From: a virus
Reading direction: 5' to 3' (one strand)
Length of the DNA: 64,000 nt
Virus genome (UHGV): UHGV-1558314
The notes beneath the pieces were generated by a model. It had not been told where the DNA came from. It saw nothing but the letters and a program-made list of their open reading frames with translations, and did not search any database. Of the stretch, positions 10,397 to 34,455 are shown one piece after another (position 1 is the first letter of the stretch; each line of letters starts with the position of its first letter). A program made the position numbers and the translations under genes.

Positions 10397-10618
10397 TTAA
10401 GCTTCTTTGAAATTCAAGCAATTATTGAACCAGAGTTCTTCTGCAATCGTAAGCTCCAGTTCAGAGCAGTTATTCTTAATGAAGTCAGTCGGGTCATAAT
10501 TGAAATACACATATTCACCTGAATAGTGAAAAGGCTGTTCCATAGCAATCAATGCGAACATTAAACTGTCGATGTCCCTTTTATTGCCATATGCTACGTA
10601 AACTTTAATCTGTTTCAT
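10397..10618 (-). CDS. hypothetical small protein (73 aa)
   Basis: ORF track; preceded by a conserved promoter motif and a 5' UTR (AACCTCTACAACA-ATG) shared with gene 43203..43514. Confidence 0.45.
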   Translation of the reverse strand: MKQIKVYVAYGNKRDIDSLMFALIAMEQPFHYSGEYVYFNYDPTDFIKNNCSELELTIAEELWFNNCLNFKEA

Positions 10619-10635
10619 TGTTGTAGAGGTTTTAT

Positions 10636-10664
10636 ATTATATATTGATATATTACAACATTTGT
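10636..10664 (-). promoter_or_regulatory. conserved phage promoter motif (ATGTTGTAATAT...TATAAT)
   Basis: Minus-sense AAATGTTGTAATATATCAATATATAATATAAAACCTCTACAACAATG; the -10 TATAAT lies about 20 nt before the ATG. Confidence 0.45.
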
Positions 10665-10710
10665 TGTCAATTTGCACAATTGTTGTTAACAAAATGCATT
10701 ACATTGACAA

Positions 10711-10763: not shown

Positions 10764-11822
10764 TTACTGCTTCAAGCCTGTGAACAGTTCATACTTGAAT
10801 GCAGGCCCTGCTGTGTAAGCCTCAAAGTAGAAGTCACCAATATTGATGCTTGCAATAGCGTCATCGACAGCTTTCTTGTAGCCTACACGTTCAATTGTCT
10901 GCTTATCGCATTTACGCCAATATGTGCTGTGCATCATAAGCGTGGGTGATGCAGCATAGTCTACTGCAAGCTGTTGTTTTGCAGTGTCAATGTGATGTTC
11001 ATAGATGTGCACATCATTGCCAGTCCAAATGAACTCTCTTGCCGCACAGTTAGTCAATGTTGCAACAATATGTGTAAGCAATGCATATGATGCGATATTG
11101 ATGGGCACACCAAGACACATGTCACAACTACGCTGAGTAAGCGCACAGTCAAGCCACATGCTTGGTACTTGAGCAGAATCAAGGCATTCTGCAGAACAAT
11201 CATGCACAAGCATGCTATCATTAGCAATCTGAATTCGTTCTTCAAGAGTCATTGGCTGACAATTGAACTGAAACAGCATATGACATGGCGGCAATGCCAT
11301 CTGAGACATTTGTGCAGGATTCCATGCAGACACGACTTTGTAGCGGCCAGTTGGATTGATGACAATGTCTTTAATGCAAGTTGCAAGTTGGTCATATCCA
11401 CTGTCATTGAAGTTGCGCCACTGATACCCATAGATAGGTCCGCAATCACCATACTCAGGCTTGCTGAATTTTGTGTTATGCAGTTCTGTGCACCAAGTTT
11501 CAAAGTCGACATCTTCACCTGGATGCAGTTTACGCCAATGACGATATGCATCCTGATGCCAGAACTTTGTAATACCAAGCGTGTCAAGCGTTTTTACATT
11601 TGTATCACCTGACATAAACCACAGAAGTTCTCCAATGACACCCTTGACAAACATTCTCTTGGATGTCAACAGTGGAAAGCCTTTACGCAAATCAAATCGC
11701 ATTGATTCTACAAACAATGACTTTGTGCGAGGCATGTTTTCACGAGCAGGCTCCTTAAATCTGCCATGTTCAATAACATTGTTAAGTACTCTCAAGTACT
11801 CAGTGTCGTGTTTGATATTCAT
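10764..11822 (-). CDS. thyA: thymidylate synthase (ThyA family, with insertion)
   Basis: FPLLTSKR, VVSAWNPAQ, catalytic ALPPCHMLFQF, and LGVPINIASYALL with Asn at the base-specificity position (uracil-specific). Confidence 0.8.
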   Translation of the reverse strand: MNIKHDTEYLRVLNNVIEHGRFKEPARENMPRTKSLFVESMRFDLRKGFPLLTSKRMFVKGVIGELLWFMSGDTNVKTLDTLGITKFWHQDAYRHWRKLHPGEDVDFETWCTELHNTKFSKPEYGDCGPIYGYQWRNFNDSGYDQLATCIKDIVINPTGRYKVVSAWNPAQMSQMALPPCHMLFQFNCQPMTLEERIQIANDSMLVHDCSAECLDSAQVPSMWLDCALTQRSCDMCLGVPINIASYALLTHIVATLTNCAAREFIWTGNDVHIYEHHIDTAKQQLAVDYAASPTLMMHSTYWRKCDKQTIERVGYKKAVDDAIASINIGDFYFEAYTAGPAFKYELFTGLKQ

Positions 11823-12509: not shown

Positions 12510-14387
12510 TCAAAAGCCTGCAAAGAAATCAGCATCAGCAGCATCTTGCTGCGATGTTGACTCTTGTTCAATCACAAATCGACTGTGCAACTTTTGATTA
12601 TGTTTTATGTATGGCATAATGCGCCGGATTGATTCATCAATGACAAACGTTTCACACCAGTCATTTGCATGTCGAATGCCTCGACCAACTGACTGTACGA
12701 AGCTTTGATAGCACTTATTGCGATACCAGCTTTCGTGATTTGCAGCTTTTGTTTTGACTACGATATCACCAAGTGATTGCCAAGGTAATTTTGCAACAAT
12801 TTGACATCTACAACGATTGTCTGGTAAGTCAACGCCTTCAGTAATGCTAAAGCCTACAAGTACGTAGTTAGTGCCATCAGCAAGCATTGCAAGTTTGTTT
12901 TGTTTATCTTCAGCATTGACATATGTCAGCATTCTGCGTTTGTGCTTGCTGTTATTGATGATATAGTTTGCAATGTCTCGTGTTGATGTGTGTATGATAC
13001 AGTTGCAGTCATGCGTGTCAAGAATGCTGTCAATCTTCTCAACAAGTCGAGGCATATTTGCCGCTTTATTCTTGTAGCTCAATGACAACGCAGGCCTGCA
13101 CAGTACAATGGGGGATTTGCTAAAATCCCAATCAGGCTCCATGTAGAATGCTACATAGTTTTTGATGCCATTGAGTGCAGCAAATGTGTCGATGTCACCA
13201 ATTGTCGCTGACATCCACAATTGTGCGTGTGTAGCATCACTGTGATGCACCAGCGTATTTGCAAGAAGCTCATCATTGACACATTTGAATTGCAAGCTGT
13301 TTGTTGCAGCGTCAAGTACTACAAGCATGTCACCAGGTGATTGTTCAGTTGCATCAAGCATTGTAATGATTGAATATGACAACGTATCACAGCTGGCAAC
13401 AAAGCGAATGAACGCTTTCTCAAATTGACCAAGTATTTTACCAGAATCCTGAAGTTCACTTAGCTTGTCATATGCAGTATGCAAAAAGTCTACAAGTTCT
13501 GACAACTGCTGTGCAAGCACTCTTGCTTCTGCTCGCATTGTTGCAATGTCATATTGTGTTGTTGCAAGCTTAATGATTGCTTTGACTTGTGCAAACACAT
13601 TATTGCGAAGTTCTACATATTTATTCTGATTTTCAAGAGTCATGATACCTGCAATCAGTGACTCGGCCTTTGTGCAATTCTGAATGAATCGAGGACCAAT
13701 TGACGTGTAAAGAAAGCCTGACAAAATGTCATCAATCTTATGGCACTCATCGAATATTGTCAATTCACGAGGCCCAAATAAGTTTTTGACGCAATTGACT
13801 TGTATCAACCAGTATGCATAATTGAGCACAGTGCAATTTGCTGCTGCAGCCTTTTGACGAGTCTGCAAATATGCGCATTTAGGTCCGCATGGCAATGCAA
13901 GAGCTTTCTTTGATGACAGCCCGTCTTGCTGGCATTTGCCCATACTGAATGGCAGCCCATTGACATGACAAATGTAGTTGTCTCGACCTTTGAGCATTAC
14001 ACAACTTCTGAATGCTGAAGTAGTTGTATCTGCTTTAGCATTGTTGTCGTACAAATATTGCTGAATGAACTTGTCGTACTGGTCTTGCAGCAGTTTATCA
14101 GAAGTCAGTACATACGACTTAAAGAACGTTGCACAAAACATTGCAACCACAGATTTCCCCGTTCCAGTCGCGCCCTGCAACACAACATTTTGCCCATTTG
14201 CAATGCAACGAATGATGTCAATAATTAGTTGACGTTGAGTTGCGTCAAAACGTGCTTGGTCCCATTTGCATGTCTTTGATTGTGCAAGATATGCTGAGAA
14301 TTTGTCGATATGTGCTACAATGAGCTCATCAAGCTCTTGCTGAGACTGTTCTTCTGTCTTATGTTCTGTTGGTGTTAGTCTACCCAT
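12510..14387 (-). CDS. XPD/DinG-like (Rad3 family) SF2 DNA helicase with Fe-S Cys cluster
   Basis: Walker A VLQGATGTGKSVV, DECH box IFDECHKIDD, motif VI VQSVGRGIRHANDW, and four Cys between motifs I and II (ICH, KCQ, PCGPKC). Confidence 0.7.
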   Translation of the reverse strand: MGRLTPTEHKTEEQSQQELDELIVAHIDKFSAYLAQSKTCKWDQARFDATQRQLIIDIIRCIANGQNVVLQGATGTGKSVVAMFCATFFKSYVLTSDKLLQDQYDKFIQQYLYDNNAKADTTTSAFRSCVMLKGRDNYICHVNGLPFSMGKCQQDGLSSKKALALPCGPKCAYLQTRQKAAAANCTVLNYAYWLIQVNCVKNLFGPRELTIFDECHKIDDILSGFLYTSIGPRFIQNCTKAESLIAGIMTLENQNKYVELRNNVFAQVKAIIKLATTQYDIATMRAEARVLAQQLSELVDFLHTAYDKLSELQDSGKILGQFEKAFIRFVASCDTLSYSIITMLDATEQSPGDMLVVLDAATNSLQFKCVNDELLANTLVHHSDATHAQLWMSATIGDIDTFAALNGIKNYVAFYMEPDWDFSKSPIVLCRPALSLSYKNKAANMPRLVEKIDSILDTHDCNCIIHTSTRDIANYIINNSKHKRRMLTYVNAEDKQNKLAMLADGTNYVLVGFSITEGVDLPDNRCRCQIVAKLPWQSLGDIVVKTKAANHESWYRNKCYQSFVQSVGRGIRHANDWCETFVIDESIRRIMPYIKHNQKLHSRFVIEQESTSQQDAADADFFAGF

Positions 14388-14404
14388 TCTAAATGAGATT
14401 TAGA
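14388..14404 (-). promoter_or_regulatory. palindromic leader element TCTAAATGAGATTTAGA abutting the helicase start codon
   Basis: Perfect 7-bp inverted repeat with 3-nt spacer at positions -1 to -17 from the ATG; identical element at 21342-21358. Confidence 0.5.
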
Positions 14405-14626
14405 TTATGTTCGAATATATGAGAACATATATTATTTGTAAAGATATAATACTACAAACAGCACACATTTGCACTTTGACATAACTGATTGAGTATCAAT
14501 CAATTATGAGTTTATAAAAGTTTTTCAAAAGTAGGGTGTTGTTGTTTGAGTAGAGTGTTGTTAATGCTGTCAGCTGTCTTGTTAGCATTATCGATTGCTT
14601 GCAAACTATCAGCCGTCATAGAACAT

Positions 14627-14666
14627 CACAAAAGCAAGCAGACTACAATTGCAGTCTGCTTGCTTT
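14627..14666 (-). terminator. rho-independent terminator (13-bp stem) followed by TTTTGTG
   Basis: AAGCAAGCAGACT / AGTCTGCTTGCTT stem; near-identical palindrome at 30977-31004. Confidence 0.55.
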
Positions 14667-14687
14667 GACATATGTGTAGCATATAGC

Positions 14688-15044
14688 TTATTTGCACATA
14701 AACAATGCAGCAAACCAATTCACTGGCTTGTCAATAAGCTGCTTCCACATAGTCCAATTGTACATGCCATGTGCAAACATTGTAAGAGCAAACAGCAGCA
14801 TACACATTGATACAAGCCAATCAGCAAATGGCATATTGCCCCATCGAATGTACTCGAAAATGCCAACTTTAACAAGCTGAGCAAACAAAATGAGCATTAC
14901 AGCCATTGCAAGTCGCGTCCAGACTACATATTGCTGAGTCTTATCTACAAACTTTGCAATCAATGCTGGCACAAAGTACATAATGTATGCAAACAGCAGC
15001 AAGCAAAAGCCTGCATACAGCAGATTAGAAATAAAAGCTCCCAT
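14688..15044 (-). CDS. integral membrane protein (3-4 TM)
   Basis: ORF track; strongly hydrophobic segments (FCLLLFAYIMYFVPALIA, AMAVMLILFAQLV, LVSMCMLLFALTMF). Confidence 0.45.
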   Translation of the reverse strand: MGAFISNLLYAGFCLLLFAYIMYFVPALIAKFVDKTQQYVVWTRLAMAVMLILFAQLVKVGIFEYIRWGNMPFADWLVSMCMLLFALTMFAHGMYNWTMWKQLIDKPVNWFAALFMCK

Positions 15045-15047
15045 ATT

Positions 15048-15929
15048 CTATCGTTTGAATTTGATGAAGTGTTCAGCATCGAGGCCCTCAAATACATACG
15101 GGTCAAGAGTTTCCCAGAAGTTTGAGTATGTCGTTGTCTTTGCAATGCTTGTTTGCTTTGACAAGTTCATATTTGGGTAGCCAAGCATTGCATAGTGTCG
15201 CTCATATATGTGCATTGACGTCGCATTATGCACATATGCGCCAAGCTTAAGACCAAGTTCATTTGCGACAAGTTCTTGCAACAAAGTGAATGCAAACTGG
15301 TCGTTGCAAAAGCCCCAAATGACATCATTGCTTCGCATGTATGTTGTCAAGTACAGCTTATCACCACGAACATTGAAAACAAGATTCAATGTGCATGGCA
15401 TGTCTTTGCCAGTGTAGTTTGCATATTGCGGCTCATAAATGCTAATAACTGCTCGTCTTGTGCATTCATGATTTCGCAAACGTTCAATGACATCTGCAAT
15501 CTGCTTGTGCCAAATTGCGCCATACTGTGAATTGACATTGACACCATCGTCGCTGAATTGCTTCCAACGAGGCAAATAACGTTCAATGCATTCAACTGCA
15601 GGATTGGCTGTCATGTACCACGCAAATTCTGCAGCAGCATTGAGCTTTTTCCATGGTCGTACGTCAATCTTGATTTGCCGCTGTGAAGGGTCCTGAATAA
15701 CTACAGACACATTCAGCAATTCTTTTGTTCGAGTCACTGTTTGTGCATTGTTGCCCTTTGATTCTACAAACTCACCTCTACAATGAAGTTCATACAAAAT
15801 TGAGCGAAATGCTTCTGTTGCAGTGTTTTCAATGATTGTCGTCTGTTGATAACATAAATTTGACGACAATGCTTCAGCATCATTGTACTTTATGCTGTCA
15901 TTGTCATAAGGTGAATTTTTTGTGTGCAT
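15048..15929 (-). CDS. deoxycytidylate 5-hydroxymethylase (T4 gp42-like, ThyA fold)
   Basis: Catalytic Cys in DMPCTLNLVF; YMRSNDVIWGFCNDQFAF closely resembles gp42 NMRSNDVVFGFRNDYAW, with Asp at the position equivalent to ThyA Asn177 / gp42 Asp179. Confidence 0.7.
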   Translation of the reverse strand: MHTKNSPYDNDSIKYNDAEALSSNLCYQQTTIIENTATEAFRSILYELHCRGEFVESKGNNAQTVTRTKELLNVSVVIQDPSQRQIKIDVRPWKKLNAAAEFAWYMTANPAVECIERYLPRWKQFSDDGVNVNSQYGAIWHKQIADVIERLRNHECTRRAVISIYEPQYANYTGKDMPCTLNLVFNVRGDKLYLTTYMRSNDVIWGFCNDQFAFTLLQELVANELGLKLGAYVHNATSMHIYERHYAMLGYPNMNLSKQTSIAKTTTYSNFWETLDPYVFEGLDAEHFIKFKR

Positions 15930-15953
15930 ATTTTGGGATGTTTGTTTTTGTTA

Positions 15954-17048
15954 TCATACAACGACGGTATCTCGTTTGCAATCTGTTCTGTCGAATATCG
16001 AGCAACAATATGATGCAGATTGCTCTTTGATTGCAATAGCTTCGTCATTGTCAAGTGATGAAATACCATCTATGTATGCTTTTGTATTGCCAGCGATGTC
16101 ATCATTTGTTAGCAATGCTGCACGACGTTCAGTACCAAAGAAGCCAAAGCACAATTGACGCTGCAATGCTTCACGAGAAATCTTGTCATCAAACTCGGAT
16201 TTCATGTGTTGCATAAATTCGACAATATCATCAATGTCGCATTGAGTAAAGTCAATGTACAATTTATGCATGTACTTGAATCGTTTGTAGTCTGTTGCAA
16301 GAATTTCTGGGTGCACAATGAACAACGTCTTTTTGCTGTCTATTGGATTTGCAATGACTGACGCTTGAACATAATCAACAAGCACGCCAGATTCACGAAG
16401 TTGCTCAACTGTTTTGCCAAATATATGCCCAAACGTGTCATCAAACCACTTCAAGTATACTTCGTTGTCTTCATCTTTTGATGCGCCAACAATGTAAATC
16501 TCATTGACTCCAAGCGCTTTAAGACGAGTGTCAGATAGCATCGTGTTCAATTGATGCTGCACATACAGCATTGGGCTGCTATGCAAAACTGTTTTGACAA
16601 TCTCACAAGCAATGTCCATATATGCATAGTCAAGCTTTGCAGATTTTGACACATACACTGCACGTTGCTGCAATGGCTCAATTGCTGAGCATGTGGTCAC
16701 AAAGTTGCCAACACATTCTGCTACTGCAATGTCATGCAAGTCATCTGCAATGTACACAATACTTGACAAGTCATCAAATGTTTGAACAAGTTGCTGAAGC
16801 TTTGTTTTGTAATTGCAGAGCATCAATGACTTGATGTTGCAATTGCCAAGCATTGTCTTGATGAGTCGTTGACCTGCTTCAGTGCTGTCACCAGAAATGA
16901 CATGCACATCGCAGTCAAACCAGTTCAACATGTCGATTGCATGCCGAACGCCATATTGCATTTGTTTTGCGAACTTGCCAGATTCATTGAACAGCATTTC
17001 ACCTGACATAATGCCGTCAAAGTCACATACGATTTGAAGTCTGTCCAT
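15954..17048 (-). CDS. HAD-superfamily phosphatase domain protein with uncharacterised C-terminal domain
   Basis: N-terminal IVCDFDGIM matches the HAD motif I (D-x-D-G). Confidence 0.5.
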   Translation of the reverse strand: MDRLQIVCDFDGIMSGEMLFNESGKFAKQMQYGVRHAIDMLNWFDCDVHVISGDSTEAGQRLIKTMLGNCNIKSLMLCNYKTKLQQLVQTFDDLSSIVYIADDLHDIAVAECVGNFVTTCSAIEPLQQRAVYVSKSAKLDYAYMDIACEIVKTVLHSSPMLYVQHQLNTMLSDTRLKALGVNEIYIVGASKDEDNEVYLKWFDDTFGHIFGKTVEQLRESGVLVDYVQASVIANPIDSKKTLFIVHPEILATDYKRFKYMHKLYIDFTQCDIDDIVEFMQHMKSEFDDKISREALQRQLCFGFFGTERRAALLTNDDIAGNTKAYIDGISSLDNDEAIAIKEQSASYCCSIFDRTDCKRDTVVV

Positions 17049-17052
17049 GTTG

Positions 17053-17358
17053 CTACAATTTTGAAGTTAAGTCAATTCGAATTTTGTCTGCGTTGCTTTG
17101 GTCAACAAATCTGTCATCAAAGAAACATTCAACTACGACAAGCTTCTTTGAATTCACAAATTCGATTAGCGATTTTTGCATTGCATCAAGTTGCTTCATG
17201 CATTTACAAAAGCTGCTGTATGACATGATTTGCTTTGGTAACATATCAAATGCGTCTGCAATTCGCTGATGAGCAATCTTTTTTGATGTTGCAATAATGA
17301 CATCTGCTTTGTTGTCATTTGCATGATTGCCAAATATCGCAATATGGTAAACTTTCAT
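17053..17358 (-). CDS. hypothetical small protein
   Basis: ORF 17053..17385 trimmed to internal Met MKVYHIAIFG. Confidence 0.35.
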   Translation of the reverse strand: MKVYHIAIFGNHANDNKADVIIATSKKIAHQRIADAFDMLPKQIMSYSSFCKCMKQLDAMQKSLIEFVNSKKLVVVECFFDDRFVDQSNADKIRIDLTSKL

Positions 17359-17412
17359 TGTATGAGTGATTTTGCTGTTATACATTTATGTTATATATGC
17401 ACATTGTGCCAG

Positions 17413-20400
17413 TTAACAAATTGATGACGTGCCATCAGTATTTGCTACAACTGTCAATGCACTATCAAACTCATCTTGTTGCAATACATGGTCAACTATG
17501 AGTGTTTTGCGAATTGCAGAAAGCTTGGTAAGCAACTGCATCAACACTTGCTGATAATTGATATTGTTGACATCATGCTCAGCGCCAACAATCTGCCCAT
17601 TGCTAAGCTTGCCACTGATTTCGTCAATGAGCAAGATGTTGCCCACTTTGTTTAAGCGTTGAGTCAAAATGAGATGCACGATTGCAAGACCTGCGAAAGT
17701 TCCTTCCATGCCAGACATTTGACTTACACTTCGAATTGACTTCGAGCCCATCAAGTCAATCATCTTCAACACATTGTTGTCATTGATGTCAAAGAACACT
17801 CGGTAGTTCAATGAATCCAGCAAATCATTGAGCTGTGCATTCAGTGATGTTGCAATTGCTGCAAAGACATATGAAACTAAGCCTCGTTTGCTTGTGCACT
17901 GCTTATATGCATTGTACACCAAGTTTGCAATGTTCCACTTTTTCGAAGCTTGCAAATCTTTCTTGAGAGCTTCAATTCGCACATTGTTTGCTGATAAGTC
18001 TGCTTGCATTGTTGCAATTTCTGCATTGATGCTTAGCAGTTTTGAGTTCGCTTCAGTTTCATGCTGCTTAGCATCATCAATGTCGACTTGCAATGCAGCA
18101 TTTGTTGTAATATGCTGCTGAGTTTGCTGTGCATGTTCAAGTGCAAATGCTGCAGCAGTCTTATCAATCTCAAGTTGTTTAAGCGCAGACTCATATGTCG
18201 CTTTCTTATCATACTCTGCTTGAGCAATTTCAAGTTCAGCATTTATTGCAGCCAGTTCTGATTCTACTGTAGATTTTGATTGCAATACATCTTGCTTTGC
18301 TTGTTCAGCTTTACGTTTGATGTCTGCAAGTTGATTTGTGATATCTGCAATTTGCATTTTGACTGCTTCGACTTCAAGCAATGTTGCTGCAGTAGCCATT
18401 GGTTGTGCAATGAATGCATCTAAGTCTCTTTGCGCATTGACTACAGTTCTCTGCAAATCATTGAGCTTTTCTGCATGCATGTCATATGCTGCTTTGTGTG
18501 CTGGATTCAGTGCAGCAATTATTGCATTTGAATCTGTAACATCTATGATTGCTGCTTGCAGTTGCTCAATTTCATACTTCAAATTGCCAATTTTGACAAC
18601 ATTCTCATTGAATTGCTCTGTCTTTTGCGCACATTCTTGACGCAACTTAGCAAGCTCAGTTGACAACCACAGCTTGTATGCTTGTCCTGTGCCAGATGTC
18701 AAGTCATTTGTACATACAGGGCATTTGTCGTTTTCAAGTTGCTTTTGCTTGTCTATAACATTGTCGATGTTTGTTTTTGCAGCAGATATTTCTGTTCTAA
18801 GTGCATTTTGAACAGTGTTGATGTCTTCAATTTGCTTTTGCAAAGCATCTATTTTTGCCCGAGTGTTTGCATTGTACGACTTGCCAAGATTTATCAGCAC
18901 AGAATCAATGTGCTGCTTTGCTGCATCATATGCAAGCTTTGATTCATCAAGCTTTGTTCTGTACAATGACTCTGCATGCGCAACTTCTTTCTGCACTTTT
19001 GCAGATAGCTCATTCTGTTTTGTAAGCAGCTCAGCATATGTATTGTGCAGCTGTGAGCCAGATGCTATGACATTTGTGTATGCTGTATTAGCTTCATTGT
19101 CAATATTAGTGAGTTGCTGCTCAATCTGTGCTTTTGCTGTTTGCAACTTAGACATATCTTGCAATGCAAGTGCAGCAATGTCAAGCTCAACTTTGTGAAT
19201 CTTTGCAATGATGCCATCGATATTTGCTGTTGCATCTTCTATAGTTAAGATGTCTGCAGGAATTTGATGTAGTTTCTTTGAGAGCTCTTCTACTTTTGCA
19301 CGAGCTTTTGTAAGCTTCGCGGACCACTCTTTTTGATTATCTTGTCGTAACTGCAAAGAGTAATTGAGTTCATTGCAAGTTGTATTGAGAGACTCAAGTT
19401 CTGCTTTTATTGCAACATCAGTCAATGCGGGCTTACTAAGGCCATCAAACAATGCAGCCTTTGCAGCATCATTAGAATTGCCAAGCTGTACAAATGTATT
19501 GATGCCAAGAGTATCAAGTAGCCAGTCATTCAATGAATTTGAGTCCATTGCAATGATTTGGTCAAGTAGTGTCTGATTGATACAAACATATCGCGACAAT
19601 TCCCAGATAGAGCCAAAGATTGCATATAGCGTGTCTTTGATTTCATGCTGCGGCACTACGTAGTCATCTGACAATCTTACAAGCTGAACAGTCTCATTGA
19701 CTGCTGACACGTTATCTCGCCATGAGCCATCTGCATTTATTCGAGAACCTCGTTTGAATTTGCGTTCAAGTGTTCGAATCAATTTGTAGTGAACATTTTG
19801 ACCTGCTACTACATGCACAAAGACACAAGAAGCTTCAAGCTTATCATATGACTCATTGTCAATCAATTTGTCATTGAAGTATGTCAAAGCGTTCTGCTTT
19901 GTTGCTGCAGAAGACTGTTCAGCGTCAATAAAGCCAGTCAGCAGCCATTTGATAAGTCTGAAGATTGTAGTCTTGCCATTGCCATTGTTGCCTCTAACTT
20001 GTGTAAGCTGTGCAAGATTGTCAAAGCTGACATCAACATCTTTCAATGCCATGAACTGATTTGCTTTAACATTTTGAATGACATATTTTGCAACTTCAGT
20101 GTCAAAAGACAATTTATCAATTTGTTCATCAATCAATGACTTGAACATGTCAACAAACTGCTGAGCATCTTCAGTAGCAACTATGGCATTGCGTTCAATG
20201 TATGCATTGACCCAGTCAAGTGCAGCGTCTTTAAGCCATTCAGCAGTTTGAACCTTTTGCAGCAAATTGTCGCCATTTGCGTCTACAGCATTGATTGAAT
20301 CAATGACAGCAGAATCATACAGAATGTCAATTGCAGCAACAACATATGAACTTACAAGATTCTGTGCAATGCGCTCAACAATACCAGACAGTTCGGGCTT

Positions 20401-21339
20401 TGTGACCTTTGACTTGATTTTGATTTTATTGATGCGGCCAGGGTTGATGAGTGCAATCTTGTCTGTTTTGACATCATTATCAATTGTGATTGTATGATAA
20501 TGCACAAGCTGCTCAAGTGGATGCCACTCTACCACAATTCGCTTGTTGTCAATATCGATGTCAAGCAAGTTGTAGCCATGTTCTGCAGTACCATGCTGTA
20601 TTGCAGTGTCATTCAACAAATAGTCGCCTTCACCAAAATCTCTGACAATTGGCGAGCCGCAATATGTTAATGTCTTATCACCAGCAACCCATATTGCATG
20701 CTTATGAATGTCACCCATTGCAACAAAGTTGCTATTAAATTGCATTGCATCTATACGACTGTCATTGTCACCACGAACAATACAATCATCAAAGTTGACA
20801 CAATTCTTTACAGGGTCATGGAACAGCTCAATGACACACATTGATGACAATGCTGCAATCTGCGATTCATCAAGTGATGCCCAAGGCGAATATGTGCCAC
20901 CAGACCACTTCTCATTTTGAGCCCATACTGCAGCAGCAAAACCAGGTGCAAGCAGTTCAACTCTTGAACTGTTGATATACTTGATTCGCTTGTCATCAAT
21001 TGCAGTTACAAGCTTGTCAATGCTATCTGTCCACTGCATTTGTGAACCATCACCAGCATCAAATGTGTTATCACGTTGCTTCAAATCATGATTGCCAGCA
21101 GTAATGACAATTTGAAGCTTGTCATTGACTTCAAGCATGCCTTTGAGCAGCTTAACAAACAGCGACTCTTCAAGTGAATTGCTATTCCAATGCTCAAACA
21201 CGTCGCCGACAATGAATACAAACTCAACTGACTTTGCTTTGTCAATTAGTTGTTTGTTGATGTGCTCATATTCTACGAAACGTCGTAAATGACCTTGTCG
21301 AACATTATATTGAATGTCTGCTATGTGAAGTGCTTTCAT
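17413..21339 (-). CDS. fused Mre11/SbcD nuclease - Rad50/SbcC ATPase (1308 aa)
   Basis: N-terminal phosphoesterase motifs VFIVGDVFEHW, VITAGNHDL, GDIHKH; Walker A GNNGNGKTTIFRLIKWLL; coiled-coil with zinc hook DKCPVCTNDL; signature SGMEGTFAGLAIV; Walker B LLIDEISGKLS. One uninterrupted ORF. Confidence 0.75.
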   Translation of the reverse strand: MKALHIADIQYNVRQGHLRRFVEYEHINKQLIDKAKSVEFVFIVGDVFEHWNSNSLEESLFVKLLKGMLEVNDKLQIVITAGNHDLKQRDNTFDAGDGSQMQWTDSIDKLVTAIDDKRIKYINSSRVELLAPGFAAAVWAQNEKWSGGTYSPWASLDESQIAALSSMCVIELFHDPVKNCVNFDDCIVRGDNDSRIDAMQFNSNFVAMGDIHKHAIWVAGDKTLTYCGSPIVRDFGEGDYLLNDTAIQHGTAEHGYNLLDIDIDNKRIVVEWHPLEQLVHYHTITIDNDVKTDKIALINPGRINKIKIKSKVTKPELSGIVERIAQNLVSSYVVAAIDILYDSAVIDSINAVDANGDNLLQKVQTAEWLKDAALDWVNAYIERNAIVATEDAQQFVDMFKSLIDEQIDKLSFDTEVAKYVIQNVKANQFMALKDVDVSFDNLAQLTQVRGNNGNGKTTIFRLIKWLLTGFIDAEQSSAATKQNALTYFNDKLIDNESYDKLEASCVFVHVVAGQNVHYKLIRTLERKFKRGSRINADGSWRDNVSAVNETVQLVRLSDDYVVPQHEIKDTLYAIFGSIWELSRYVCINQTLLDQIIAMDSNSLNDWLLDTLGINTFVQLGNSNDAAKAALFDGLSKPALTDVAIKAELESLNTTCNELNYSLQLRQDNQKEWSAKLTKARAKVEELSKKLHQIPADILTIEDATANIDGIIAKIHKVELDIAALALQDMSKLQTAKAQIEQQLTNIDNEANTAYTNVIASGSQLHNTYAELLTKQNELSAKVQKEVAHAESLYRTKLDESKLAYDAAKQHIDSVLINLGKSYNANTRAKIDALQKQIEDINTVQNALRTEISAAKTNIDNVIDKQKQLENDKCPVCTNDLTSGTGQAYKLWLSTELAKLRQECAQKTEQFNENVVKIGNLKYEIEQLQAAIIDVTDSNAIIAALNPAHKAAYDMHAEKLNDLQRTVVNAQRDLDAFIAQPMATAATLLEVEAVKMQIADITNQLADIKRKAEQAKQDVLQSKSTVESELAAINAELEIAQAEYDKKATYESALKQLEIDKTAAAFALEHAQQTQQHITTNAALQVDIDDAKQHETEANSKLLSINAEIATMQADLSANNVRIEALKKDLQASKKWNIANLVYNAYKQCTSKRGLVSYVFAAIATSLNAQLNDLLDSLNYRVFFDINDNNVLKMIDLMGSKSIRSVSQMSGMEGTFAGLAIVHLILTQRLNKVGNILLIDEISGKLSNGQIVGAEHDVNNINYQQVLMQLLTKLSAIRKTLIVDHVLQQDEFDSALTVVANTDGTSSIC

Positions 21340-21341
21340 AT

Positions 21342-21358
21342 TCTAAATGAGATTTAGA
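21342..21358 (-). promoter_or_regulatory. palindromic leader element TCTAAATGAGATTTAGA just upstream of the Mre11-Rad50 start codon
   Basis: Same 17-bp palindrome as at 14388-14404, at -3 to -19 from the ATG. Confidence 0.5.
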
Positions 21359-21386
21359 TTATATGTTGATATTGTACAACATGCAA
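21358..21386 (-). promoter_or_regulatory. sigma-70-like promoter TTGCAT-N17-TATAAT with conserved TTGTACAA core
   Basis: Minus-sense TTGCATGTTGTACAATATCAACATATAAT, about 18 nt upstream of the ATG at 21339. Confidence 0.55.
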
Positions 21387-21418
21387 AATGCACTTGCATT
21401 TTGATACAACGTATGTCA

Positions 21419-21766
21419 TTATTTTGCAAGCATTTTGCTGATTGCATCTATCACAGTTTCACTGAGCAAGTAGTAGACAACGCTTATCAGCAATGATATC
21501 AGTACTGCAGCTGTGATAAATTGCAACGCATTCACAATTGCACGCACAAATGTTATCTGTGTGTTGTATGCAAGCACTATGCAGCATAGCACAATAATGA
21601 CACACCAGACTACAATTGCATATGCAGGCATCAATGAATTTGTCCATATGCAGTACAATACAGTAGTTAGCATCAAAAATGCTATTGCTCTGATGACTGA
21701 CACAATGATGTCTATGTAGAGCTTCATTACACGTAAATGAACTCTTGGCTTATGCGGTTTCATCAT
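21419..21766 (-). CDS. small membrane protein
   Basis: ORF 21419..21829 trimmed to internal Met; hydrophobic segments IIVSVIRAIAFLMLTTVLYCIW, AIVVWCVIIVLCCIVLAY, AAVLISLLISVVYYLL. Confidence 0.4.
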   Translation of the reverse strand: MMKPHKPRVHLRVMKLYIDIIVSVIRAIAFLMLTTVLYCIWTNSLMPAYAIVVWCVIIVLCCIVLAYNTQITFVRAIVNALQFITAAVLISLLISVVYYLLSETVIDAISKMLAK

Positions 21767-23001
21767 GACTTTATGTACAATTCTGCAAGTTGTCTGGTGT
21801 ACAATCGTGGATTGTGATATGCTTTCCAATATGCAGTAGACTTTATTGCAGCAAGAATCTCATCATAATGTTTGACTGCTTTTGCTACAACTTCATCAAG
21901 TACATGCAAATCTTCTACACTAACAAGCAGCCATTTTTCTACAATGTCAATGAATTCTTGATTGCAATTAAAGCCATATTTGTAGTTGCAAGTGTCAAGT
22001 ACAAGTGGGATGCAGTCATTTGTCAGTGCTTCAAAAAATCTACGAAGACTGAAACAATTCTCATCATATGATGGAATGCTTAATGTAAACTTGGCAGTCT
22101 TGATGAGTTGCAAATACTCTTCGTATGGAATCAGAGGACCATTGTGCTTCCACTGATTGTTATGTCGTCTTGTTGTGTACTTGAACAAAAACTTTGAACT
22201 GTCAAGCTCACAAAGATGGTCCATGCGTAAAATGTAGTTATAGCGGTCTCTTCTATCAGGCCAACTGTCAGTCATTGCAAACACAAAGTCTCTTTGCTTG
22301 TCACATTTTGCTGACATACCTCTATGCTGACACATGCAGTACCAATATTGCTGCGATGGACTGAACTCGAACTTTGAGTGATGCTCACTGCCATCTTTGC
22401 ATTGTTGAACGTAAATATTGTCAGGCACAAAGTGAAAGTAGAAATGTCGAATTTGCAAGCCGTCAATGTAGTCAAGCTTATGCTGCAATGGGTCCTCACA
22501 GAAATTGTAACACTGAATGCGTTTTGCTGCAGCATACTCAGCAACTATGAATGTGCACACCCATTGCAATGCGATGTCTTCACTCTTCAAAAAGTCAACA
22601 AGTGGCTCATTTGGATGCGCTTTGCATTCATTGAACATTTTGTACCACTTGCATTGCTCCATGTCATACTTGGAGACTGTATTGCCATTAAAAAATGACA
22701 CAGTATCAATTTTGAATGCCTCAAGTTGTTTATGCACAATGTCGATTGCTTGTGCATATGTGACAGTCTCATCAGACATTATTTGTGCAAACTTGATTGG
22801 ATGCGCATGCAAATTTGCAATTGTGTCTGCTGACATTTTGCGCTGTGTATGATAATCGACATACAAAAACTGACACTTGTCTGTAAGCAATTCAAGCATT
22901 GCTACAGATTTCCATCGAATTGCTTGAAAGAAATTGAAGTGCGCAGTTTGAAAAATGAGATGCGTAGGCTTGTCAGAATGAGTCAAAGTTTGCATGGACA
23001 A
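21763..23001 (-). CDS. putative DNA glycosyltransferase, GT-B-like (paralog A1)
   Basis: Paralogous to 26026..27582 (shared EDPLQHKL[D/N]YID, SPSQQYWY, IPSYDENCFSLRRFFEALTNDCIPLV). The C-terminal S-L-R-x-F-x-E...P-L-V patch resembles the catalytic region of phage beta-glucosyltransferase. Family assignment is from memory. Confidence 0.45.
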   Translation of the reverse strand: MSMQTLTHSDKPTHLIFQTAHFNFFQAIRWKSVAMLELLTDKCQFLYVDYHTQRKMSADTIANLHAHPIKFAQIMSDETVTYAQAIDIVHKQLEAFKIDTVSFFNGNTVSKYDMEQCKWYKMFNECKAHPNEPLVDFLKSEDIALQWVCTFIVAEYAAAKRIQCYNFCEDPLQHKLDYIDGLQIRHFYFHFVPDNIYVQQCKDGSEHHSKFEFSPSQQYWYCMCQHRGMSAKCDKQRDFVFAMTDSWPDRRDRYNYILRMDHLCELDSSKFLFKYTTRRHNNQWKHNGPLIPYEEYLQLIKTAKFTLSIPSYDENCFSLRRFFEALTNDCIPLVLDTCNYKYGFNCNQEFIDIVEKWLLVSVEDLHVLDEVVAKAVKHYDEILAAIKSTAYWKAYHNPRLYTRQLAELYIKS

Positions 23002-24158
23002 ATGTCGCAGTTATGTTGATGTTTGTGTTTATTTATGAAGTCATATGTCACTGCAAAAAAGTGCTTTGCAATGTCATATCGAGTTTTCAAATATGCTGCT
23101 TGTCGTTCACAAAATGCTGCATAAATATCTGGGTGTTGTTTGAATGCTGCAATGCGTTGCTGTACTTGTTCTGCAGAATGCACATATGACACTTTGCTCA
23201 AATATACATCATCTGCAAATAATCGTTTGTCTTTGTCAACTGCGCAATCAACAAAAGTTGCAATTCGTGCAACAATTGCTTCACCGACACGATTTGGTAT
23301 TAGCCCATATTGCTCATATTGCTGTTCGCCGATAGCAATGTGTGCTGCTGCATATGACATTGCATATGGCACACTATAAAATGGCACACTAAAATCAAAT
23401 GAACAATTTGACTGCAGCAATTGTGTTTGTGCATCAGACAATCTACTTGTCAAGTTGCCTGTATATTTGTGCTCACCAAGAAAACTTGAGCGACAGCCTG
23501 AATCTACATAGTATCGAATGACTTTGTTTATGCGACTGTCAGATAGCATATGCCAATCTCTTGTAGCATATATCAAGTCTACTGTTTTTGCGCCAATATG
23601 ACGAGGCTCTATCGCAACATTGCTGTATGTTGGCAGCATAAACAATGGCAGCCATTTGACATTGTTGAACACTGAATGCTCATTTGACAAATTCATGCAC
23701 TGGCTAAGTTCAAGTACTGGCTCATCATACACGCCATGTAGCTCAACTCTGCCTGCATGCACAAAGTTGACACGCTTAAATGGAAATCGCATATCAGTGC
23801 AAACTGTCATTCTTGCTGCAATAGACATTCGCCACATAGCATGCAGCTTAACAACTGCTTCTGCTTGAGGTCGAGGCAACATATTTAGCAAATCAATCCA
23901 GCCGCCCCACAAAATCCAAACATCATTTGAACAGATGTTGAATTGCAAACTCAATATGTCTTCTACTGTTGTAGCAATAATGTCATGCCCATTGATGCTT
24001 GCAAGGTGTTTTCGTTGATTTGCAATAATAATGACTTGACTGAATGGAGACTCTGGAAATGACACAAGCGCTTTTGCAAACAACACGGGTTCTTGCGACA
24101 CCAAGTTGTTTGAGTATGGGTCGATTATGCAATCAAGCTTGTGTATGAAGAGTCTCAT
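22983..24158 (-). CDS. hypothetical DNA-modification-associated protein (paralog B1)
   Basis: Paralogous to 27579..28745 (similar N-termini MRLFIHKLD / MSKLFILKFD; shared L[L/I]PNR[W/V]-x-E-x-[V/I] near C-terminus). Sits immediately upstream of A1, as B2 does of A2. Confidence 0.4.
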   Translation of the reverse strand: MRLFIHKLDCIIDPYSNNLVSQEPVLFAKALVSFPESPFSQVIIIANQRKHLASINGHDIIATTVEDILSLQFNICSNDVWILWGGWIDLLNMLPRPQAEAVVKLHAMWRMSIAARMTVCTDMRFPFKRVNFVHAGRVELHGVYDEPVLELSQCMNLSNEHSVFNNVKWLPLFMLPTYSNVAIEPRHIGAKTVDLIYATRDWHMLSDSRINKVIRYYVDSGCRSSFLGEHKYTGNLTSRLSDAQTQLLQSNCSFDFSVPFYSVPYAMSYAAAHIAIGEQQYEQYGLIPNRVGEAIVARIATFVDCAVDKDKRLFADDVYLSKVSYVHSAEQVQQRIAAFKQHPDIYAAFCERQAAYLKTRYDIAKHFFAVTYDFINKHKHQHNCDICPCKL

Positions 24159-25124: not shown

Positions 25125-25153
25125 GAGGATGGATTTTATATGTTGATATTGTA
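25125..25153 (-). promoter_or_regulatory. sigma-70-like promoter TTGCAT-N17-TATAAA (second copy of conserved motif)
   Basis: Minus-sense TTGCATGTTGTACAATATCAACATATAAA; spacer identical to the copy at 21358-21386. Confidence 0.5.
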
Positions 25154-25195
25154 CAACATGCAAAATGTATTTGCATTTTGATACAACATATATTG

Positions 25196-25411
25196 TCATT
25201 TTGCACAGTCTGATGCAATTAAATCTTTGTCAAAGCATTCATCTATAATGTCTTCAATAAGATACGCTTCGACATTGTTAAGCTTCAAGATATCTACGAG
25301 TTTTGCTTTGATATCGCAAGCTAATGCAGATTCGACTGTATGCAATATGACTGATGATACGACATGCTTGTCTGTCATCATTTGTAATTGCTGTGGTGTT
25401 ACTCTACTCAT
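25196..25411 (-). CDS. hypothetical small protein (71 aa)
   Basis: ORF track; 4-nt overlap with the upstream kinase gene. Confidence 0.35.
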   Translation of the reverse strand: MSRVTPQQLQMMTDKHVVSSVILHTVESALACDIKAKLVDILKLNNVEAYLIEDIIDECFDKDLIASDCAK

Positions 25412-27582: not shown

Positions 27583-28745
27583 GATTTGAATGTTTGTTCA
27601 AGAATTGTGTAACACTGCACAATCATTACTGCAAGAGCTTTTTGCTGTGCTTGTTTGCAATCATCAAAATTTGTGGGCGCAGTGCGTACGCGTGTTTTGC
27701 TATTAAGTGTCGCAAATGTCGCGTAGTCATCGAAGCCTATAATGTCAGCAAATAGGGCAATTGGCTTATAATCTACAAGTATGTTGCAGCAATTTGCAAG
27801 TACGCCTTCAACCCATCGATTTGGCAGCAAGTCTGCTTGCACATACAATGAATCACCAACTACAAGATTGTATGCCGACTGTGACATTACACGCGGCATT
27901 GCATCGTATGTGACTTTGTATTTAAGTGTAAAGTTTGGTGCTGCTGATTTAATCGCAGACAAAATTGTGTCATCAAGATATGATGTTATGAGACACGTGT
28001 CGCACATATGTATGACAAATTGTTCAATCACACTTCTACGATACTCGTCAAGATATGTGAAACCTGCACAACTTGCACAGCATGCATATTGCTGCTTTAT
28101 GTCAGCAAAGCTACGCACATGAGCTTCAATTGCATTTTGCATCGTTACTTGTAGTTTAAGCAATCTTGGCTCTTTAATGTATTGAAGCTTCAATGCATTG
28201 ACTGCTGCAATGATTTGCAATGGGGCAAACACACATTGAGACTCATCAAGCCAAGCGTATTTGAGATTTTTGTGCTGGCATAGATGCGTAATGTTGTCTT
28301 TTTGTGATTCTAAGTACTCTTTGTAATTGTGCAATCGCTTTGTCAATGTGCATTCTTTATCAAAGTCGAATCGCAAATCAGTTGTTAGTGTAAATTTGCG
28401 AGCGTTTGACAAACACCATGTTTTGAATGCATTCCACAGAACATCTTGCTGAAATTCTGAGCAATGTTCAAGAGCAGCCTTTGAACCTTGCCAGAATATT
28501 GCGCAATCATCTGATTTTGCGCACTTCAGCATATCTTGCCATGCATGTATGTTATTGATAATATGCACATTATCATACACAAGCTCATCAAGTATTGCAT
28601 GCTTGTTCTCAGGGTCGCCAAACACATATACAGCATCAAACATTGTCTGCACAAAACCTGCAAATGCAATAGGTTCTGTATGCTTAAGATGCTGTACGTC
28701 TGAACGCACGCATGTGTCAAATTTCAAAATGAATAGTTTGCTCAT
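27579..28745 (-). CDS. hypothetical DNA-modification-associated protein (paralog B2)
   Basis: Paralog of 22983..24158; same position relative to its A partner. Confidence 0.4.
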   Translation of the reverse strand: MSKLFILKFDTCVRSDVQHLKHTEPIAFAGFVQTMFDAVYVFGDPENKHAILDELVYDNVHIINNIHAWQDMLKCAKSDDCAIFWQGSKAALEHCSEFQQDVLWNAFKTWCLSNARKFTLTTDLRFDFDKECTLTKRLHNYKEYLESQKDNITHLCQHKNLKYAWLDESQCVFAPLQIIAAVNALKLQYIKEPRLLKLQVTMQNAIEAHVRSFADIKQQYACCASCAGFTYLDEYRRSVIEQFVIHMCDTCLITSYLDDTILSAIKSAAPNFTLKYKVTYDAMPRVMSQSAYNLVVGDSLYVQADLLPNRWVEGVLANCCNILVDYKPIALFADIIGFDDYATFATLNSKTRVRTAPTNFDDCKQAQQKALAVMIVQCYTILEQTFKS

Positions 28746-30845: not shown

Positions 30846-30874
30846 CATATATGAATATATTGTACAACATGTAT
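30846..30874 (-). promoter_or_regulatory. conserved promoter motif (ATACAT-N17-TATATG variant)
   Basis: Minus-sense ATACATGTTGTACAATATATTCATATATG, 16 nt upstream of the ATG at 30829. Confidence 0.45.
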
Positions 30875-30970
30875 TGAGCTTTTGCACAACATATGTTGTT
30901 AAAATATCATCATTGTACAACATAAAGCGCATATTTGCACGTTGTGTTGCTAAAAATATTGTTATTGTAC

Positions 30971-31004: not shown

Positions 31005-31051
31005 CACTTGTTATTAACCCTTAAAATCAATGACACTATGTCAATGTCATT

Positions 31052-34437: not shown

Positions 34438-34455
34438 TTATATTGATAATGTACA

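What the first reader, a model, noticed from the sequence alone, without database searches (positions are those of the whole stretch)
14388..14404. Identical 17-bp palindrome abutting the start codons of two DNA-repair genes
TCTAAATGAGATTTAGA occurs immediately upstream of the ATG of the XPD-like helicase (14388-14404) and of the Mre11-Rad50 fusion (21342-21358). In the mRNA it forms a 7-bp hairpin with a 3-nt loop right at the initiation site, and neither gene has a Shine-Dalgarno sequence. This looks like a shared translational operator (compare T4 RegA or gp32 autoregulation) or a binding site co-regulating recombination genes.
Basis: seen in the sequence. Interest (0 to 1): 0.55.

Follow-up and report, generated by a model that had tools for sequence, protein, structure and literature searches.

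The report
Shared leader hairpin before two repair genes
Two neighbouring DNA-repair operons of an uncultivated ~176-kb phage (probably of a Bacteroidota host) share an identical 23-base leader ending at the start codon; its 17-base palindrome most likely folds in the mRNA and damps translation, and it is a recent, strain-variable module rather than a conserved operator.

Summary
TCTAAATGAGATTTAGA occurs exactly twice (14388-14404, 21342-21358). The genes are on the minus strand, where it reads TCTAAATCTCATTTAGA. It ends 0 nt before the ATG of a DinG/Rad3-type helicase and 2 nt before the ATG of an SbcD-Rad50 fusion. Exact identity spans 23 nt.

The missing Shine-Dalgarno is not specific to these genes. 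None of 51 genes has one, and A is enriched at -3, -6, -12 and -13, the Bacteroidota pattern.

Each copy lies downstream of a recurrent promoter-like motif (TGCAA-N16-GTAYWWTAT; 10 hits against 0.66 expected), so it is probably transcribed. The hairpin alone is weak (-2.3 kcal/mol). Even so, these two genes have the least accessible initiation regions of the 51.

Three strains about 95% identical in DNA keep the palindrome next to the ATG. A neighbouring 27-28-nt hairpin block and an upstream stem-loop/promoter cassette come and go. Syntenic relatives at 63% and 44% protein identity lack the palindrome and have open initiation regions.

Best reading: a lineage-specific, recombination-spread leader module that acts in cis to tune translation or mRNA stability down. 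A DNA operator, a protein-bound RNA operator and a neutral recombination scar are not excluded. No RegA-like or helix-turn-helix protein was found in the window. Interest is modest.

The parts
14388..14404 (-). Palindrome copy 1 (coding strand TCTAAATCTCATTTAGA), ending directly at the ATG of the helicase gene
21342..21358 (-). Palindrome copy 2, ending 2 nt before the ATG of the SbcD(Mre11)-Rad50 fusion gene
14386..14408 (-). 23-nt exact shared leader block ATAATCTAAATCTCATTTAGAAT, helicase copy; it includes the first two bases of the ATG
21340..21362 (-). 23-nt exact shared leader block, Mre11-Rad50 copy
14405..14431 (-). Block B: TATATGTTCTCATATATTCGAACATAA, with its own 7-bp hairpin (ATATATG-TTCT-CATATAT), flanked by ATAA repeats. 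It is present or absent at both loci depending on the strain. In this window it is present here and absent at the Mre11-Rad50 leader.
14444..14473 (-). Promoter-like motif of the helicase unit: TGCAA-N16-GTATTATAT (-35-like GTGCAA, 17 nt, -10-like TATTAT)
21369..21398 (-). Promoter-like motif of the Mre11-Rad50 unit: TGCAAG-N15-GTACAATAT
21359..21428 (-). 70-nt stem-loop plus promoter cassette, 90% identical to 25136-25205. The similarity stops exactly where the palindrome begins.
   Evidence: (family D15)
25136..25205 (-). Second copy of the stem-loop plus promoter cassette, without the palindrome
14631..14663 (-). Terminator-like hairpin (GCAAGCAGACT...AGTCTGCTTGC followed by TTTT) ending the Mre11-Rad50 unit upstream of the helicase promoter; a 94% copy lies at 30973-31005
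   Evidence: (family D18)
12510..14387 (-). DinG/YoaA/Rad3(XPD)-family helicase, 625 aa
17413..21339 (-). SbcD(Mre11)-Rad50/SbcC fusion protein, 1308 aa
62552..63448 (-). Phage-encoded sigma-70-family factor (regions 2 and 4). It is inferred, not shown, to read the TGCAA-N17-TAcAAT promoter class.

Best explanation
The palindrome is the core of a short 5'-leader module: 23 nt now, probably about 50 nt ancestrally together with block B. Recombination copied it between the leaders of two adjacent operons in one species-level phage lineage.

Each copy lies downstream of a phage-type promoter (-35 G/TTGCAA, 17 nt, -10 TAcAAT). It is therefore transcribed into a leader of about 24 nt (short form) or about 52 nt (long form). 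In the mRNA it forms a weak stem-loop. Flanking CAU/AUG pairing, or an alternative register in the helicase mRNA, extends the structure so that it covers positions -17 to +3, including the A-rich -12 to -14 stretch.

In a translation system without Shine-Dalgarno pairing, initiation depends on an open, A-rich leader. The structure would therefore act in cis to lower and equalise translation initiation of a helicase and a nuclease-ATPase. It might also affect 5'-end stability.

Shown: the duplication, the position, the mosaic and strain polymorphism, and the predicted structure and its rank among genes. Inferred: the transcription start, that the RNA folds in vivo, and the effect on translation.
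For: 1. The exact 23-nt block occurs at both start codons and nowhere else.
2. The promoter motif TGCAA-N16-GTAYWWTAT has 10 hits against 0.66 expected. Eight of them lie on the coding strand, most of them just upstream of genes. Both palindromes lie 28 or 55 nt downstream of the motif. The same -35/-10 arrangement stands before the orthologues in the 44% relative L011.
3. The distance from promoter to palindrome varies by 27-28 nt between strains at both loci. The palindrome-to-ATG distance is fixed (0 nt at every helicase copy, 2 nt at every Mre11-Rad50 copy) in all 9 leader copies read: 5 helicase and 4 Mre11-Rad50, including the loci identical to the window.
4. Predicted accessibility of -17..+3 is 0.21 and 0.28, ranks 1 and 2 of 51 genes (median 0.58). 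All four leader variants keep the region about 70% paired.
5. The phage shows the Bacteroidota-type initiation signature: 0 of 51 Shine-Dalgarno sequences, and A at -13 in 71%, -12 in 67%, -3 in 57% and -6 in 49% of genes. In Flavobacterium johnsoniae, initiation is tuned by structure in the initiation region and by these adenines (PMC6847099).
6. Between strains about 95% identical in DNA, the helicase intergenic region has about 22 differences in 257 columns but none in the last 55 nt.
Against: - The hairpin is weak: -2.3 kcal/mol alone, and -4 to -5.7 with its extension.
- The flanking CAU/AUG extension is imperfect in two of the four leader variants.
- Orthologous genes in relatives at 63% and 44% identity have no such structure, so it is not needed for these genes.
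- The transcription start is inferred from a motif only. An alternative -10 (TATAAT/CATAAT/AATAAT) abuts the palindrome and would start transcription inside it.
- Zero substitutions in the leader could reflect recent exchange rather than selection.
- A perfect Watson-Crick 17-bp dyad fits a DNA site equally well.
Confidence: 0.42

Rival explanations
1. DNA operator. The 17-bp perfect dyad (7-bp arms, 3-bp centre, half-sites one helical turn apart) binds a dimeric phage or host repressor just downstream of the transcription start and co-represses the two operons.
For: The dyad is perfect and has the size of classic 17-bp operators (the comparison with lambda operators is from my own knowledge). 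In the short-form leaders it would span about +8 to +24 of the inferred promoter. An alternative sigma-70-like -10 directly abuts it (TTTGCA-18-TATAAT ending at 21358), which would put it across the transcription start.
Against: Depending on the strain, both loci carry the dyad 27-28 nt further from the promoter, a poor position for a repressor. Its distance to the ATG is fixed instead. No helix-turn-helix or other DNA-binding regulator was detected among about 66 window proteins, although about 110 kb of the genome was not seen. There are no half-sites or further copies at other promoters of the same class.
Confidence: 0.18
2. Protein-bound RNA operator. A phage RNA-binding protein recognises the hairpin at the initiation site and represses translation of both mRNAs, as in the T4 gp43 operator or the MS2 coat-protein/replicase operator. 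This is.
For: The hairpin is identical in sequence and loop at two start codons. It is too weak to be a strong block by itself, as is typical of hairpins that need a protein. Its distance to the ATG is fixed.
Against: No RegA-type or other RNA-binding regulator was detected in the window. There are only two targets. The element is absent from relatives that keep the whole syntenic gene set, so any binding protein would also have to be lineage-specific. Identity of the loop is uninformative because the copies are identical by descent.
Confidence: 0.12
3. Neutral by-product of cassette recombination. The block was copied from one leader to the other by the phage's recombination system through short homologies. 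It persists because it is tolerated and has no regulatory role; hairpin-containing blocks are simply the units that slip in and out.
For: The Mre11-Rad50 leader is a mosaic: a 70-nt cassette shared with 25136-25205, then the block shared with the helicase leader. Block B and the upstream stem-loop are present or absent between strains about 95% identical, and are flanked by short direct repeats (ATAA; GTTGTA). The element is absent from relatives. Comparable promoter/stem-loop cassettes (PeSLs) drive indels in T4-type phages (PMC2839356, PMC4122927).
Against: The initiation region is where this phage keeps its mRNAs most open (median accessibility 0.58), yet these two genes are the two most structured of 51. 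Both independent deletions remove block B precisely and spare the palindrome. There are no substitutions in 55 nt where about 4-5 would be expected.
Confidence: 0.2
4. Promoter-in-hairpin switch, as described for T4 genes e, soc and 49. The left arm and loop (TCTAAATCTCA) would be a weak late-type promoter. Transcripts from the upstream promoter would carry the whole hairpin and be poorly translated, while late transcripts starting inside it would be open.
For: TCTAAATCTCA matches 9 of 11 positions of TGTAAATATCA and TATAAATATCA, which stand 35-41 nt upstream of two large, unannotated, possibly late genes at 52530 and 48136.
Against: Only two examples define the putative late motif. Its -10 part differs little from the general promoter class. 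The mismatches fall at positions that are critical in T4 late promoters (my own knowledge). There is no transcript evidence.
Confidence: 0.05

Closest known systems
PeSL mobile regulatory cassettes of T4-type phages (Arbiol et al. 2010, PMC2839356; Comeau et al. 2014, PMC4122927)
   Same: Both are short intergenic modules containing a promoter and a stem-loop, repeated in the genome. Both sit at the junctions of indels and replacements between closely related strains, with recombination through short homologies. The 70-nt cassette at 21359-21428 and 25136-25205 fits this description.
   Different: The palindrome lies downstream of the promoter, next to the start codon, not upstream as a terminator. 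It is AT-rich rather than having G/C-rich stems. The promoter is not the host consensus. The genes are conserved replication and repair genes, not orphan genes.
Initiation-region hairpins of T4 genes e, soc and 49 (from my own knowledge of the T4 literature)
   Same: A stem-loop covering the ribosome-binding region and start codon limits translation of transcripts that contain the whole stem.
   Different: The T4 hairpins sequester a Shine-Dalgarno sequence and are relieved by late promoters inside the stem. Here there is no Shine-Dalgarno sequence, and an internal promoter is only a weak possibility.
Protein-bound translational operator hairpins: T4 gp43 operator, MS2/R17 coat protein-replicase operator (from my own knowledge)
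   Same: A short hairpin at or next to the start codon, weak by itself.
   Different: Those are single autoregulatory or single-target sites with a known binding protein and a specific loop and bulge. Here there are two targets, no candidate protein, and a 3-nt loop.
T4 RegA translational repression and gp32 autoregulation
   Same: Post-transcriptional control of phage replication and recombination genes at the initiation site; AU-rich target.
   Different: RegA targets are unstructured and number in the dozens. gp32 acts on its own leader. Neither feature is seen here, and no RegA homologue was found in the window.
17-bp dyad operators of lambdoid repressors (from my own knowledge)
   Same: A 17-bp sequence with two-fold symmetry about a central base pair.
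   Different: Those operators overlap the -35/-10 region and occur in tandem arrays next to the repressor gene. This dyad is single, lies downstream of the promoter at a strain-variable distance, and has no repressor gene nearby.

Membership tests
T4 RegA-type translational operator | A RegA-family protein (Pfam Translat_reg) is encoded by the phage | tested here: not met
   No such hit among about 66 window proteins scanned with Pfam, NCBIfam or PHROGs. About 110 kb of the genome lies outside the window and could not be scanned.
T4 RegA-type translational operator | Unstructured AU-rich target overlapping the AUG, present on many early mRNAs | tested here: not met
   The element is a hairpin. 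It occurs only twice in 64 kb even with 3 mismatches allowed, and only twice as an exact match in the 174.6-kb relative.
gp32-type autoregulation | The operator lies in the leader of the gene for the single-strand-binding protein itself | tested here: not met
   The gp32-like gene is at 36132-37265. Its leader of about 120 nt lacks the palindrome.
PeSL-type mobile regulatory cassette | Composite of a promoter and an adjacent stem-loop, repeated in intergenic regions | tested here: met
   This holds for the flanking cassette: 21359-21428 and 25136-25205 are 90% identical, with the stem AAAATGCA/TGCATTTT plus the promoter motif. The palindrome itself lies outside that cassette, on the downstream side of the promoter.
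PeSL-type mobile regulatory cassette | Marks indel or replacement junctions between closely related phages | tested here: met
   Three strains about 95% identical differ by presence or absence of block B and of the upstream stem-loop at these two leaders.
PeSL-type mobile regulatory cassette | The stem-loop works as a terminator and the promoter matches the host sigma-70 consensus (shown by reporter assay in the original work) | not testable with these tools
   There is no U-tract after the palindrome. The promoter differs from the Bacteroidota TTTG / TAnnTTTG consensus, which is not enriched in the window. Function needs experiments.
Cis-acting hairpin occluding the translation initiation region | The start codon and upstream ribosome-binding region are base-paired in the transcript | tested here: met
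   In silico only: P(unpaired) over -17..+3 is 0.21 and 0.28, ranks 1 and 2 of 51 genes. All four strain variants stay about 70% paired.
Cis-acting hairpin occluding the translation initiation region | The element lies inside the transcript (transcription start upstream of the left arm) | tested here: inconclusive
   The recurrent promoter motif places the start about 8 nt (short form) or about 35 nt (long form) upstream of the palindrome. An alternative -10 abutting the palindrome exists. There are no transcript data.
Cis-acting hairpin occluding the translation initiation region | Disrupting the stem raises translation and compensatory changes restore the original level | not testable with these tools
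   No natural arm variants exist among the strains found; the palindrome is invariant in all copies.
Dyad-symmetric repressor operator (DNA) | Dyad symmetry of operator size | tested here: met
   Perfect 7+3+7 dyad.
Dyad-symmetric repressor operator (DNA) | Fixed position overlapping the promoter or transcription start | tested here: not met
   The distance to the promoter motif differs by 27-28 nt between strains at both loci.
Dyad-symmetric repressor operator (DNA) | A cognate DNA-binding repressor is encoded | tested here: inconclusive
   None was recognisable in the window. Many orphan proteins remain, and most of the genome was not seen.

The most novel reading that the evidence does not exclude
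The hairpin is a dedicated translational operator bound by a so far unrecognised phage RNA-binding protein. It would couple synthesis of an XPD/DinG-type helicase and an Mre11-Rad50 fusion in a phage whose host ribosomes ignore Shine-Dalgarno sequences. That would be a two-gene post-transcriptional regulon that arose recently by leader copying.
Probability: 0.12. Interest if true: 0.55.

Novelty: new member of a known kind. Interest (0 to 1): 0.3.

Why it matters
If the cis-acting reading is right, this is a clean natural example of expression tuning in a system without Shine-Dalgarno pairing. A short hairpin placed over the A-rich initiation region does the tuning, and such a tuning element can be copied between unrelated genes as a tiny leader module. 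Three natural leader variants exist at each gene, with or without the neighbouring hairpin and at two distances from the promoter. These form a ready-made allelic series for reporter tests in Flavobacterium or Bacteroides. It would add little new principle, because initiation-region hairpins and mobile regulatory cassettes are both known from T4-type phages. The wider context may be more useful than the palindrome itself: a phage sigma factor with its own promoter class, in a poorly known group of large phages that probably infect Bacteroidota.

Tried and rejected
- Exact 17-mer scan of viral contigs: apart from the one true relative it returned 5 loci from 3 unrelated contexts (L001/L006, L002, L003/L004). 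By my own rough estimate this is about what chance would give for an AT-rich 17-mer in a collection of this size.
- Two metagenome-contig scans found nothing. The first pattern was also badly designed, because the Y demanded an extra base.
- Megablast of 10 kb against the phage collection gave no match. Protein-level relatives there are only about 29% identical.
- Rfam gave no family in 14000-22000.
- Exact look-ups of window proteins, meant to reach more strains, returned only contigs identical to the window. Cluster members from the listing of cluster members could not be looked up.
- Scans of viral contigs with the two genes' first codons found only the one known relative.
- The host-type Bacteroidota promoter pattern TTTG-N-TAnnTTTG is only weakly over chance, and its hits lie mostly inside ORFs.
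- Rejected as readings:
  - Terminator: no U-tract follows the hairpin.
  - RNase III site: the stem is too short.
  - SbcCD hairpin substrate: the palindrome is far too short.
  - Coding on the plus strand: only a 49-aa ORF, inside a minus-strand leader.
  - A joint structure of block B plus the palindrome: fold z-score only -1.6.

Full report
**1. Observation**

The 17-mer TCTAAATGAGATTTAGA is present exactly at 14388-14404 and 21342-21358. Even with 3 mismatches allowed there is no other site in the 64-kb window. Shuffled sequence gives 0.24 matches on average, and none of 100 shuffles reaches the observed number.

Nearly all genes here run on the minus strand. On the coding strand the motif reads TCTAAATCTCATTTAGA. 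It is followed at once by ATG GGT (ORF 12510-14387) or, after AT, by ATG AAA (ORF 17413-21339). The exact identity is 23 nt, ATAATCTAAATCTCATTTAGAAT, and this is the longest dispersed exact repeat in the window.

- The first is a DinG/YoaA/Rad3-family helicase.
- The second is a fusion of an SbcD/Mre11 phosphoesterase with a Rad50/SbcC ATPase.

**2. Genome context**

No close relative exists in the phage collection. The helicase is about 29% identical to those of Chryseobacterium, Tenacibaculum and PAU phages. Strain contigs of 175-181 kb give the genome size.

None of 51 ATG genes has a Shine-Dalgarno-like 4-mer. Adenine is enriched at -13 (71%), -12 (67%), -3 (57%) and -6 (49%). This is the pattern described for Flavobacterium johnsoniae, where initiation is tuned by these adenines and by mRNA structure (PMC6847099). 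A BACON-domain protein is also encoded. A Bacteroidota host is therefore likely. The absence of a Shine-Dalgarno sequence at the two genes carries no specific meaning.

The surrounding genes belong to a T4-like replication and nucleotide module:
- a gp32-like single-strand-binding protein;
- two thymidylate-synthase-like proteins;
- a dCMP deaminase;
- thioredoxin;
- an RNase T-like exonuclease;
- glycosyltransferases.

**3. Promoter and transcription units**

A motif TGCAA-N16-GTAYWWTAT, with one mismatch allowed, occurs 10 times against 0.66 expected. Eight hits lie on the coding strand, most of them just upstream of genes. It reads as a -35-like (G/T)TGCAA, a 17-nt spacer and a -10-like TAcAAT.

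Both palindromes lie downstream of such a motif, 28 nt (Mre11-Rad50) or 55 nt (helicase) from the motif end to the ATG. The same -35/-10 arrangement precedes the orthologous genes in the 44% relative L011; L010 and L014 keep the -10-side motif.

The window encodes a sigma-70-family protein with regions 2 and 4. The host-type Bacteroidota promoter pattern is only weakly over chance, with hits mostly inside ORFs. I therefore infer, without proof, that the phage sigma factor reads this promoter class.

A terminator-like hairpin at 14631-14663 separates the Mre11-Rad50 unit from the helicase unit. Each palindrome thus sits in the leader of the first gene of a transcription unit. With a start about 7 nt after the -10, the short leaders would be about 24 nt long, with the palindrome at about +8 to +24.

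**4. RNA structure**

- Alone, the hairpin is worth -2.3 kcal/mol.
- In context the stem extends through CAU..AUG (helicase) or CAUAU..AUAUG (fusion gene, -5.7 kcal/mol), with an AA bulge, so the start codon is paired.
- The helicase mRNA also has an alternative register, CUCAUU/AAUGGG plus UCUA/UAGA, that buries the AUG.
- Across 51 genes, the mean probability of being unpaired over -17..+3 is 0.21 and 0.28 for these two. They are the two lowest values; the median is 0.58.
- In the helicase leader, the AAA of the left arm sits at -12 to -14, the position of the A-rich determinant.

**5. Comparative evidence**

A relative with 98% identical helicase (IMG/VR contig 3300045988_152288) and a third strain (ENA ERZ19243320), both about 95% identical in DNA, carry the palindrome at both genes. 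The surroundings differ.

| Strain | Block B at helicase leader | Block B at Mre11-Rad50 leader |
|---|---|---|
| Window | present | absent |
| IMG/VR 3300045988_152288 | present | present |
| ENA ERZ19243320 | absent | present |

Block B (TATATGTTCTCATATATT(T)CGAACATAA) is 27-28 nt long, has its own 7-bp hairpin and is flanked by ATAA repeats.

At the Mre11-Rad50 leader the window also carries a stem-loop/promoter cassette that is 90% identical to one at 25136-25205. The similarity ends exactly where the palindrome starts. That leader is therefore a mosaic of two repeated modules.

The palindrome is invariant in all 9 copies read, and it stays 0 nt (helicase) or 2 nt (Mre11-Rad50) from the ATG. 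The helicase intergenic region has about 22 differences in 257 columns but none in the last 55 nt.

The syntenic relatives lack the palindrome. These are L010 (63% identity) and L011 and L014 (about 44%). They share no leader sequence between the two genes, and their initiation regions are mostly open.

**6. Interpretation**

The identity of the two copies is due to copying, not convergence. The element is young, at species level. Its position argues for a role at the RNA level: it is fixed relative to the start codon, variable relative to the promoter, and gives the two most occluded initiation regions in a phage that otherwise keeps them open. The most likely role is cis-acting damping of translation of a helicase and a nuclease, perhaps with an effect on mRNA stability. 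I put this at about 0.4.

The rivals:
- A DNA operator (0.18) fits the perfect dyad but not the variable promoter distance.
- A protein-bound RNA operator (0.12) has no candidate protein.
- A neutral recombination scar (0.2) fits the modular turnover and the absence from relatives, but not the accessibility ranking or the sparing of the palindrome by two independent deletions.
- A T4 e/soc/49-type internal-promoter switch (0.05) rests on a 9-of-11 match to two putative late motifs.

**7. Comparison with known systems**

The upstream cassette behaves like the PeSL promoter/stem-loop cassettes of T4-type phages (PMC2839356, PMC4122927). The palindrome is a downstream leader module of the same modular system, and it works, if at all, like the known initiation-region hairpins. 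It fails the tests for a RegA or gp32 operator. It is a new member of known kinds and is of modest interest.

Noticed in passing
window 62552-63448 (-); motif sites on the minus strand at 10647-10676, 14444-14473, 21369-21398, 25146-25175, 30857-30886, 34446-34475, 37386-37415, 41446-41475: The phage encodes a sigma-70-family protein (regions 2 and 4). A recurrent promoter-like motif, TGCAA-N16-GTAYWWTAT, differs from the Bacteroidota host consensus. It looks like a phage-specific promoter class, and the -10-side motif recurs in relatives of only 44% protein identity.
   Followed up: partly
window, upstream regions of 51 ATG genes; BACON-domain protein at 46823-47437 (-): No Shine-Dalgarno sequence at any gene, and A enrichment at -13, -12, -6 and -3, matching the Kozak-like signature reported for Flavobacterium johnsoniae. 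With the BACON domain, this points to a Bacteroidota host.
   Followed up: yes
window 14486-14502 (-) compared with L008: The hairpin TGATTGA-TAC-TCAATCA upstream of the helicase promoter has its 3-nt loop reverse-complemented (TAC against GTA) in the strain about 95% identical in DNA, while the stem is kept. This looks like a loop inversion.
   Followed up: no
window 14512-14619 (-): An uncalled 35-codon ORF (MTADSLQAIDNANKTADSINNTLLKQQHPTFEKLL) lies between the terminator and the helicase promoter. Differences between strains are mostly synonymous, but a 1-nt indel alters the C-terminus in one strain. The 63% relative has an unrelated 75-aa gene at this position.
   Followed up: partly
window 10614-10632 and 43510-43528 (-); similar sequence before 43180: A second shared leader, AAACCTCTACAACAATGAA (19 nt exact, running into the start codon), precedes two small genes (10397-10618, 43203-43514). 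A close variant precedes 42701-43180. Whether these small genes are paralogues was not tested.
   Followed up: no
window 45583-45658: A perfect tandem repeat of 34 nt x 2.2 copies (unit ATCAAAACAACATCTTAGTTGTTTTGCATCTTGC) lies in a non-coding stretch near the switch of coding strand. A long inverted repeat flanked by A/T runs at about 45830-45875 may be a bidirectional terminator (not tested). The stretch may be an origin or a regulatory region.
   Followed up: no
window 36132-37265 (-), with leader up to about 37396: The gp32-like single-strand-binding protein gene has an unusually long leader of about 120 nt after its promoter motif. It also has a repetitive Ala/Gly-rich coding segment (36165-36319). 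This is worth checking for gp32-style autoregulation.
   Followed up: no
window 10764-11822, 15048-15929, 28717-29442, 21763-23001, 22983-24158, 26026-27582 (all -): Two thymidylate-synthase-family proteins (one divergent), a dCMP deaminase and three glycosyltransferase-like proteins (GT47-like; one with a weak beta-glucosyltransferase match) suggest hypermodified, possibly glycosylated hydroxymethyl-pyrimidine DNA.
   Followed up: no
window 14631-14663 and 30973-31005: The same 33-nt terminator-like palindrome (94% identical) closes two different transcription units. It is another repeated regulatory module.
   Followed up: partly
window 48167-52495 (-): A 1442-aa protein with several internal repeats of about 300-1000 nt spacing (repeat families D2, D4, D6, D7) and higher GC (about 45%) than the rest of the window. 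No Pfam scan was run on it, and an NCBIfam scan found nothing.
   Followed up: no
L003 and L004 (IMG/VR contigs of about 265 kb): The same 17-mer occurs once in two related, otherwise unrelated large phage contigs. There it lies upstream of a gene on the opposite orientation that does have a Shine-Dalgarno-like AGAGG. I judged this to be chance, given the size of the collection.
   Followed up: partly
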